DNA of 64,000 bases from Eledone cirrhosa. Taxonomy: Eukaryota. Below, one piece after another: positions 38,955 through 39,730 of the stretch; position 1 is the first letter of the stretch, and every line of letters starts with the position of its first letter. Below the pieces are notes generated by a model. That model was not told the DNA's origin, did no database searches, and was given only the letters and a program-made list of their open reading frames with translations. The stretch covers positions 9,766-73,765 of the forward strand of contig CAXHJY010001374.1 of the NCBI GenBank assembly GCA_964016885.1. Direction: 5' to 3'. Made by a program: the position numbers and the translations under genes.

Positions 38955-39730
38955 ATATGTAAGTATGTATGTACACGTACATACATATATGTATACAGAC
39001 GTACAGTAGCATGCATATATATATCTATATATATATATATATATATATATATATATATATATATATATATATATATATATATATATATATATATATATAT
39101 ATATATATATATATATATATATATATATATATATATATATATATATACAGGTACACATACATATATGTACGTATCAGTTTAGCGGGCGTTTTTTATAACG
39201 CCCGCTTTGTCCGTTTGTAAACAAACTGACAGCCTGAATTTATGCCATACGGTGTTAAGGCAACCACGTCACCTTTTTGTTCAACAGACACAAGAACGAT
39301 GTACTAGTTTCAAGCTTCTTAGCTATCATCACCACCGTATACCCTTCTGCCAGATGGTTGAACGTTCGAAAGTATATACATTCCTTATGAAAATTAACGG
39401 CTGAGCAGCCTAATTTGCATATCGAGTGAGTTCAGTAGGCCAGGCGCACCGAAAACGATAAGTTGTAATAAAATGAAAACCAAATTTCATTTCTCACTCT
39501 TAGTACGGCACTTTCGGACTTCCACCAGAGTTTCCTCTGGCTTCGTCCCGACCGGGCGTGGATCGCCATCTTTCGGGTCCGCGGCCGCCTGCTACACCTG
39601 AGTTCGTAGCGCGCCGCGCCGACGGTCCGAAAGCCGCCATATGTATGTACGTATACATACATACTTACATTTAAGTGAGTGCCGTACTAAGAGTGAGAAA
39701 TGAAATTTCGTTTTCATTTTATTACAACTT
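38955..39730 (-). mobile_element. Family G repeat cluster (tandem around a TA tract, plus inverted partial copy)
   Basis: Pieces at 38955-39015(-), 39147-39512(-) and 39639-39730(+). HHR at ~39296-39338 has a GTGATGA core. Confidence 0.75.
39513..39638 (-). rRNA. 28S rRNA fragment (pseudogenic, ~125 bp)
   Basis: Minus strand GGACCCGAAAGATGG..A...CGAAGCCAGAGGAAACTCTGGTGGA.GTCCG, the conserved LSU segment after the D3 expansion. Confidence 0.88.

What the first reader, a model, noticed from the sequence alone, without database searches (positions are those of the whole stretch)
39480..39730. 28S rRNA fragment captured at the inversion junction of an HHR element
Seen: a ~125-bp GC-rich LSU rRNA piece lies exactly between a minus-strand family G copy and an inverted partial copy, in the same orientation as the first copy. 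Inference: the RT jumped from element RNA to 28S rRNA and then back. This would be a footprint of RNA-mediated mobilisation and template switching for this non-coding family.
Basis: partly seen in the sequence, partly recalled or inferred. Interest (0 to 1): 0.7.

Follow-up and report, generated by a model that had tools for sequence, protein, structure and literature searches.

The report
Ribosomal RNA caught inside Penelope-like insertion
A 125-base piece of large-subunit ribosomal RNA sequence sits between two oppositely oriented pieces of a ribozyme-bearing mobile repeat, likely because the copying enzyme slipped once onto ribosomal RNA while the repeat was being inserted from both ends; it is probably a one-off accident of a kind known from mammalian LINE-1, useful mainly as a footprint of how these repeats are copied.

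Summary
Window 39514-39638 (125 nt, 68% GC, minus strand) is eukaryotic 28S rRNA sequence (Rfam E 3e-11). It differs at two shown sites from high-depth rDNA contigs of runs that also carry family G. It lies sense to a 5'-truncated copy of a ~430-nt minimal-hammerhead repeat and abuts an inverted 94-nt piece of that repeat. There is no duplication around the 28S piece. A low-complexity 22-nt direct repeat frames the whole 774-nt unit, which points to one insertion event. The first junction shows 6-of-7 near-homology (p about 0.015). 'Jumped back' is not supported: the second piece is inverted, holds 39 nt absent from the body, and ends where another copy's tail ends. It is likely a second cDNA primed on the other strand, the usual Penelope-like inversion. 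A parallel chimera at 48530-49135 joins family G to a Penelope-like ORF. No read or contig spanning the junctions was seen, so an assembly artefact is not excluded. The closest known kind is the 28S/LINE-1 chimera; my searches found none for Penelope-type elements. Modest interest.

The parts
38937..38958 (+). left copy of a 22-nt low-complexity direct repeat (candidate target-site duplication of the whole unit)
   Evidence: the 22-mer occurs 12 times in the window
38959..39015 (-). family G 'tail': monomer +1 to about +57, downstream of the body in sense orientation
   Evidence: 60 of 62 vs the 44-kb copy; same tail in the 48-kb copy
39016..39146 (.). (TA)n spacer between body and tail, without the TGAA-type units of the outer flanks
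39147..39513 (-). family G body, 5'-truncated at monomer +66
   Evidence: 92% to the copy at 44188-44620
39296..39338 (-). minimal type I hammerhead-like motif; this copy has the core C3 changed to G, while over 99% of X1 depth has the intact base
   Evidence: motif scan; anatomy read by eye; allele at 39332; no Rfam hammerhead match
39514..39638 (-). 28S rRNA fragment, 125 nt, from the variable segment upstream of LSU model position 813 to about model position 878; base 39513 fits both G and 28S
39639..39732 (+). inverted family G piece, monomer +28 to +121 (likely the second cDNA)
39733..39754 (+). right copy of the 22-nt direct repeat
48530..48711 (+). comparison locus: sense piece of a Penelope-like ORF joined to the 5' end of the 48-kb family G copy
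47700..48529 (-). comparison locus: inverted 3' part of the same Penelope-like element (GIY-YIG region), 29-nt overlap with the sense piece
48714..49135 (+). comparison locus: family G copy +173 to end, (TA)n, tail
19210..19260 (-). comparison locus: tail of an older family G copy, ending at the position homologous to +120/121

Best explanation
A 125-nt 28S rRNA piece sits sense behind a 5'-truncated hammerhead-bearing repeat and in front of an inverted piece of the same repeat, and the 774-nt unit likely arose in one Penelope-type insertion in which reverse transcriptase probably switched once onto rRNA and a second cDNA, likely primed on the opposite strand, was joined to it. Steps: (1) Inferred: a Penelope-like endonuclease cuts a TGAA-studded (TA)n array. 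(2) Inferred: cDNA 1 starts at monomer +57 of a tandem transcript and copies tail, (TA)n and body down to +66. (3) Inferred: its 3' end pairs with 28S rRNA at a 6-of-7 match, with one extra base, and 125 nt of 28S are copied. (4) Inferred: cDNA 2 starts at +121, a second family terminus, on the other strand and runs to +28. (5) Inferred: the two 3' ends are joined head to head. Shown: the anatomy, the orientations, the 28S identity, the junction-1 letters and the flanking repeat. The product is probably a single dead copy, not an amplified 28S-bearing subfamily.
For: 28S identity and near-identity to the rDNA of runs that carry family G. Sense orientation, as in 83% of 18 human 28S/LINE-1 chimeras (PMC13174262, passages). 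The 28S continuation at junction 1 is given by an X6 loose end and by 5 of 5 metagenome loci. It matches the first retained G bases at 6 of 7, one base out of register; 1.5% of 200,000 random junctions reach this. No direct repeat abuts the 28S piece: the longest word shared by the 30 nt on each side is a non-abutting 5-mer. A 22-nt direct repeat abuts both ends of the whole unit; 418 of 60,395 boundary pairs in the two arrays do as well. Both outer arrays carry the same-strand ATGAATAT unit (15 left, 7 right, 0 in the inner spacer); 3 of 29 TA arrays listed reach 2 per 100 nt, and two of them are these flanks. The inverted piece ends at +121, where the older copy's tail ends; 16 positions in +60 to +400 end in TAT or ATA. 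Adjacent inverted 5'-truncated copies, tails and (TA)n targets are standard for Penelope-like elements (PMC8557442, passages). A purified PLE protein cleaves and extends both strands and starts at two internal sites (PMC11167929, parts 1-2 of 4). 12 of the 15 joints shown for family G reads are opposite-strand (150 more not shown). The 48-kb copy shows the same three-part design with a Penelope-like ORF piece in place of 28S.
Against: No listed read or contig spans either junction. None carries the window's base at 39581 (X1 6765.9 of 6765.9 depth other; X21 15 of 15 reads other), and no run held half of the 52 sampled words. Exact overlap at junction 1 is only 1 base, or 0 if the template had the inverted piece's allele. 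The 6-of-7 statistic was chosen after seeing the junction. The 22-mer is low-complexity and was the best of 224 boundary pairs tried. The shared +121 end rests on two copies. The piece lies wholly within mature 28S, so rRNA and rDNA donors cannot be told apart. Opposite-strand joints come from one RAD library laid at 85% likeness and may include library chimeras. The mobilising enzyme is inferred from one chimera.
Confidence: 0.6

Rival explanations
1. Single continuous cDNA: RT goes element RNA, then 28S, then back, the last step onto an antisense G transcript or the antisense strand of another copy.
For: Head-to-head PLE inversions have been read as self-priming on an antisense template from bidirectional promoters (PMC3846280, passages). 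The inverted piece abuts the 28S piece with no filler.
Against: It needs an antisense template, because the first cDNA lacks +28 to +121 as one run. The outer end would be a random truncation, yet it coincides with another copy's tail end. In vitro a PLE protein extends both strands from its RNA.
Confidence: 0.12
2. DNA filler: the two cDNA ends left a gap that repair patched with an rDNA fragment or a free rRNA-derived cDNA, with no RT switch.
For: rDNA is high-depth (2,794-9,747 in X1 bins). A second, more diverged 28S variant covering the same region is in X1 at depth 9 and in 15 of 16 X21 reads, which may be another stray copy. Exact overlap at junction 1 is 0-1 base.
Against: The orientation is the one a switch predicts (a 50% coincidence under this rival). 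The 6-of-7 near-homology joins the 28S to the sense body. The parallel 48-kb chimera also has its foreign piece in sense.
Confidence: 0.12
3. Assembly or library chimera.
For: No spanning read or contig, and no trace of the window's 28S allele in 4 runs. The region is flanked by long microsatellites.
Against: The piece differs from the runs' rDNA at two shown sites, one an inserted base that all 4 relatives aligned also lack. The arms are not a mirror image. The unit is framed by matching flanks. Logan contigs drop rare variants, and X21 is a reduced-representation library of another sample, so absence there is weak evidence.
Confidence: 0.07
4. RNA-level chimera: a 28S fragment was ligated to G RNA before reverse transcription.
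For: Sense chimeras can form by RNA ligation as well as by template switching (PMC13174262). Retrozyme RNAs are RtcB substrates in vitro (PMC7229834, passages).
Against: The joint is at +66, while the predicted ribozyme cut that would leave a ligatable 5' end is after +266. Ligation does not predict near-homology at the joint.
Confidence: 0.06
5. Later, independent insertion of a 28S retrocopy (SINE28-like or processed pseudogene) into an existing G inversion.
For: 28S-derived retrocopies exist in mammals (PMC4994717, abstract).
Against: No duplication and no poly(A) around the piece. It sits exactly at the inversion point. Its divergence (2 shown sites in 125) is like that of the body (8 shown sites in 367).
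Confidence: 0.03

Closest known systems
[quoted passage not shown]
   Same: A fragment of 28S (50-482 nt there, 125 nt here) joined in sense to the 5' truncation of a retroelement, read as one event by template switch or RNA ligation.
   Different: The carrier here is a non-coding, hammerhead-bearing repeat with Penelope-like anatomy, not LINE-1. There is no poly(A). A third, inverted element piece closes the insertion, and the target is a (TA)n array.
Penelope-like element insertions with tail and inverted 5'-truncated copy (PMC8557442, PMC3846280 passages; PMC11167929 parts 1-2)
   Same: Partial tandem, tail, adjacent inverted copy with a short overlap, (TA)n target, hammerhead motif; capture of host sequence between pLTRs is described in a rotifer.
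   Different: Family G has no ORF. Its tails are about 57 or 120 nt rather than 30-40. In the passages seen, captured host sequence is genes or spacers, not rRNA ('rRNA' occurs 0 times in PMC3846280).
Non-LTR retrozymes (PMC7229834 passages; bioRxiv 10.64898/2026.07.22.740005 part 1 of 5)
   Same: Non-coding, low-GC, type I hammerhead-bearing repeat of a few hundred nt, very high read depth, proposed to be moved by PLE proteins.
   Different: No tandem of two complete hammerhead units in this window. The motif is minimal rather than canonical. Circular RNA was not tested.
SINE28 (PMC4994717; abstract seen)
   Same: 28S-derived sequence dispersed in an animal genome.
   Different: SINE28 comes from the 3' end of 28S, is Pol III-transcribed and multi-copy. 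This piece is from the 5' third, and no amplified copy with its allele was seen.

Membership tests
RNA/retroelement chimeric insertion (28S/LINE-1 type) | Cellular RNA fragment joined directly to the 5' end of a truncated element | tested here: met
   39513/39514 junction, 0-1 base exact overlap
RNA/retroelement chimeric insertion (28S/LINE-1 type) | One target-site duplication around the whole unit, none around the RNA piece | tested here: inconclusive
   None around the 28S piece; a 22-nt candidate around the unit, but low-complexity
RNA/retroelement chimeric insertion (28S/LINE-1 type) | Empty orthologous site showing both parts arrived together | not testable with these tools
   No genome held
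RNA/retroelement chimeric insertion (28S/LINE-1 type) | Carrier is LINE-1 with poly(A) tail | tested here: not met
   The carrier is a ~430-nt non-coding repeat ending in (TA)n and a tail; it works like these chimeras but is not a LINE-1 member
Non-autonomous Penelope-like element (family G) | Partial tandem with tail | tested here: met
   Tails at 38959-39015, 49078-49135 and 19210-19260; 3 of 5 body copies in the window
Non-autonomous Penelope-like element (family G) | Adjacent inverted 5'-truncated copy | tested here: met
   39639-39732; 12 of 15 shown read joints are opposite-strand
Non-autonomous Penelope-like element (family G) | Type I hammerhead motif | tested here: inconclusive
   Core, stem I, stem II and a 1-2 bp stem III read by eye. 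No Rfam match, and free folding does not favour it. All 4 window copies covering it are damaged; the read majority has the intact core base. Cleavage was not tested.
Non-autonomous Penelope-like element (family G) | Sequence homology to the pLTR of an autonomous PLE | tested here: inconclusive
   No native G-ORF link in the window; only a mid-ORF junction at 48711-48714. No genome to search.
Non-LTR retrozyme | At least two consecutive tandem units, each with a complete hammerhead | tested here: not met
   Not in this window; one read joint goes back 357 nt, so tandems may exist elsewhere
Non-LTR retrozyme | Self-cleaved linear and circular RNA | not testable with these tools
   No raw RNA run of organism A was listed
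SINE28 | [quoted passage not shown] | tested here: not met
   Rfam match begins at model position 813 of 3401
SINE28 | Multi-copy, independently transposing | tested here: not met
   No depth carries the window allele at 39581; 25,755 X21 reads continue past 39513 into G sequence at 0.98 agreement. Rare copies could be missed.

The most novel reading that the evidence does not exclude
Penelope-type reverse transcriptases switch templates routinely at the 5' junctions of ORF-less hammerhead repeats, so this genome may hold a countable class of three-part insertions (repeat, foreign RNA, inverted piece). Because rRNA exists in one polarity, such captures would mark the cDNA strand in vivo and test the sense versus antisense template models for Penelope inversions. 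Captures of Penelope mRNA, as at 48530-48711, would name the enzyme that moves a retrozyme-like family.
Probability: 0.3. Interest if true: 0.6.

Novelty: new variant of a known kind. Interest (0 to 1): 0.36.

Why it matters
The locus itself is almost certainly a functionless accident. Its value is mechanistic. Hammerhead-bearing non-coding repeats are thought to be moved by Penelope-like proteins, but the evidence cited so far is mostly distribution and phylogeny. A captured 28S piece in sense, plus a second copy fused to Penelope ORF sequence 9 kb away, would be genomic footprints of RNA copying and template switching in such a family. The rRNA piece would also fix the polarity of the cDNA, on which published models of Penelope inversions differ. 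One unconfirmed case cannot settle this; a genome-wide count could.

Tried and rejected
No whole genome is held, so no copy count, ortholog or genome-wide junction survey was possible. Whole-window Rfam scans found no other rRNA, snRNA or hammerhead: 0 matches at gathering; 45 of 45 matches at E 1e-4 were microRNA models on TA repeats, and that scan also missed the 28S piece, so its sensitivity is limited. BLAST with the 5 LSU loci found only this piece. A family G pattern found 0 matches in viral and 0 in prokaryotic contigs. Earlier-findings look-ups by sequence, place and words returned nothing. Simple fold-back of cDNA 1 was rejected because it cannot supply monomer +28 to +66 joined to +67 to +121. 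Ligation at the ribozyme cut was rejected because the positions differ, +66 against +266. The two ends of the 28S piece are complementary over 9 nt (fold z -2.3); I could not tell whether this matters, since the host sequence at the outer end was not seen. Read depth is not used as a copy number. The atlas taxa are not used to name the host. That the host is a cephalopod is my recalled impression from the divergent 28S and the TA-rich DNA; it was not tested. No supplementary files were read.

Full report
OBSERVATION. The window is AT-rich animal-type DNA full of (TA)n arrays and Penelope-like ORF fragments. No whole genome is held. Apart from two non-LTR ORF regions, 39511-39650 is the only GC-rich island. 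On the minus strand it matches the eukaryotic LSU rRNA model from position 813 (49.2 bits, E 3.3e-11). I laid four runs on 39150-39735. A contig of run X6 at depth 6110 matches 39513-39592 with one other letter and no gap. Two differences from the runs' rDNA appear among the rows shown: a substitution at 39581 in all four runs, and one extra base at 39603 in part of the contigs (40 of 111 substitution rows and 12 of 17 gap rows were shown). The four related metagenome LSU loci I aligned (4 of 5 fetched) also lack that extra base. The same runs carry family G at very high depth. So the piece is 28S sequence of the host or a close relative, 125 nt and 68% GC.

ANATOMY. I used the full copy at 44188-44620 as a 433-nt ruler. 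In the sense direction of the hammerhead strand (window minus) the locus reads: TA array; inverted G piece (+121 back to +28; 39732-39639); 28S in sense (39638-39514); G body from +66 to the end (39513-39147); (TA)n; tail +1 to about +57 (39015-38959); TA array. The inverted piece overlaps the body by 55 nt (54 identical) and adds 39 nt that the body lacks. The hammerhead is a minimal type I motif read by eye. Rfam does not detect it and free folding does not favour it. This copy has the core C changed to G, a change reported to abolish cleavage (PMC11167929), whereas 105,470 of 105,927 depth units in X1 carry the intact base.

ONE EVENT OR TWO. No repeat abuts the 28S piece and there is no poly(A). 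A perfect 22-nt direct repeat abuts both ends of the whole 774-nt unit (38937-38958 and 39733-39754). 418 of 60,395 boundary pairs in the two arrays would do as well, the 22-mer occurs 12 times in the window, and I took the best of 224 nearby pairs, so this is a candidate duplication only. Both outer arrays carry the same-strand ATGAATAT unit (15 left, 7 right, none in the inner spacer); only 3 of 29 TA arrays listed reach 2 per 100 nt. Divergence from the runs' majority is similar for the body (8 shown sites in 367) and the 28S piece (2 in 125), though this could be a strain or species difference. Together these favour one insertion into one array.

JUNCTION 1. The natural continuation of 28S is given by the X6 loose end and by 5 of 5 metagenome loci (one ends early). 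Exact overlap with G is one base, or none if the template carried the inverted piece's allele. One base out of register, 6 of 7 bases match between the first retained G bases and the discarded 28S continuation; 1.5% of 200,000 random junctions reach that (statistic chosen after the fact). This fits a cDNA 3' end annealing to rRNA with one added base. The joint is far from the predicted ribozyme cut (+66 against +266), which argues against ligation to a self-cleaved end.

JUNCTION 2 AND 'JUMPING BACK'. The tool skipped the right-hand part of the stretch as a repeat, and the relatives' 28S is too divergent there, so microhomology at this junction is unknown. A return to sense RNA cannot invert, and fold-back on the first cDNA cannot supply +28 to +121 in one run. 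The outer end of the inverted piece (+121) is at the same position as the tail end of an older, 78% identical copy at 19210; 16 positions in +60 to +400 end in TAT or ATA, so chance is roughly 1 in 16, on two copies. Inverted 5'-truncated neighbours, tails and (TA)n targets are routine for Penelope-like elements (PMC8557442, passages). A purified PLE protein nicks and extends both strands and initiates at two internal sites (PMC11167929, parts 1-2 of 4). I therefore read the inverted piece as a second cDNA. In X21 reads, 12 of the 15 joints shown (of 165) change strand, so inversion looks common in the family; these come from one RAD library at 85% likeness.

A SECOND CHIMERA. The G copy at 48714-49135 is joined at its 5' end to a sense piece of a Penelope-like ORF (48530-48711). 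That piece is head to head with the inverted 3' part of the same element (48529 to about 47700), with a 29-nt identical overlap, and the ORF does not resume beyond the G copy. The ORF has a weak Pfam GIY-YIG match (E 2.4e-4, 21.8 bits, cut-off 22.6), GIY-YIG-type atlas neighbours (0.96; family on 23% of members) and a cysteine linker before the nuclease; its clade was not tested by a tree. The design repeats the focal one with a different foreign RNA, and it likely points to the enzyme that moves G.

WHAT IS NOT SHOWN. No run held half of the 52 sampled words (best 0.40). No listed piece spans the G-28S joint (24 of 7,978 pieces shown), and none carries the window's base at 39581. Logan contigs drop rare variants and X21 is a reduced-representation library of another sample, so this neither confirms nor refutes the locus. 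It does argue against an amplified 28S-bearing subfamily: 25,755 X21 reads run on past 39513 into ordinary G sequence. The piece has no spacer DNA, so rRNA and rDNA donors cannot be separated.

COMPARISON WITH WHAT IS KNOWN. The closest kind is the 28S/LINE-1 chimera: 18 human loci, 50-482 nt, 83% sense, attributed to template switching or RNA ligation (PMC13174262, passages). SINE28 differs in origin and copy number (PMC4994717, abstract; PMC10946416, passages). Family G works like a non-autonomous Penelope derivative or retrozyme (PMC7229834, passages; bioRxiv 10.64898/2026.07.22.740005, part 1 of 5) but fails the two-complete-units test in this window. Eight full-text searches listed no paper that, by title, abstract start or the passages I read, reports rRNA captured in a Penelope-type or retrozyme insertion. 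The library lacks most subscription papers and I read no supplements, so this is not proof of absence.

VERDICT. The feature is real in the assembly and correctly identified. The best model is one template switch onto 28S plus two-ended priming (0.6). The rivals are switch-and-back (0.12), DNA filler (0.12), artefact (0.07), RNA ligation (0.06) and later insertion (0.03). It is a new variant of a known kind: a known accident in a new carrier class, one locus, unconfirmed in reads. Interest 0.36; 0.6 if such captures prove common enough to serve as polarity and partner markers.

Noticed in passing
window 47700-49135: Three-part chimera: family G joined to a sense Penelope-like ORF piece and an inverted 3' part of the same element; a short perfect hairpin sits at the G joint (48706-48724). 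It may identify the mobilising element.
   Followed up: partly
window 39332 and 48788; 39186 and the 44-kb copy: The focal copy shares alleles that are rare in the runs with its neighbours (hammerhead C3G with the 48-kb copy; another with the 44-kb copy). This suggests local kinship, or a host that is not identical to organism A.
   Followed up: no
window 39533-39578 (reads): A second, more diverged 28S variant, mostly C>T and G>A changes, at depth 9 in X1 and in 15 of 16 X21 reads: possibly another dispersed 28S copy of the same region, or a foreign organism.
   Followed up: no
window 39511-39519 and 39626-39634: The two ends of the captured piece are complementary over 9 nt, counting the extra junction base; the role is unknown.
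   Followed up: partly
window 4517-6050, 43331-44096, 51753-52126, 52831-53101, 55196-55316, 55887-58330: Several long head-to-head palindromes of other repeat families, some with hammerhead-like cores (310-nt tandem at 4606-5940; cores at 7417, 44794, 58568, 56252, 57975).
   Followed up: no
window 19503-19880: The older G copy starts at about monomer +64 to +70, close to the focal truncation at +66; this could mark a natural RNA 5' end (two copies only).
   Followed up: no
window 59073-63929: A long, nearly intact non-LTR element on the minus strand (974-aa RT-type frame, an upstream endonuclease-like frame and an ORF1-like frame); labels recalled from motifs, not searched.
   Followed up: no
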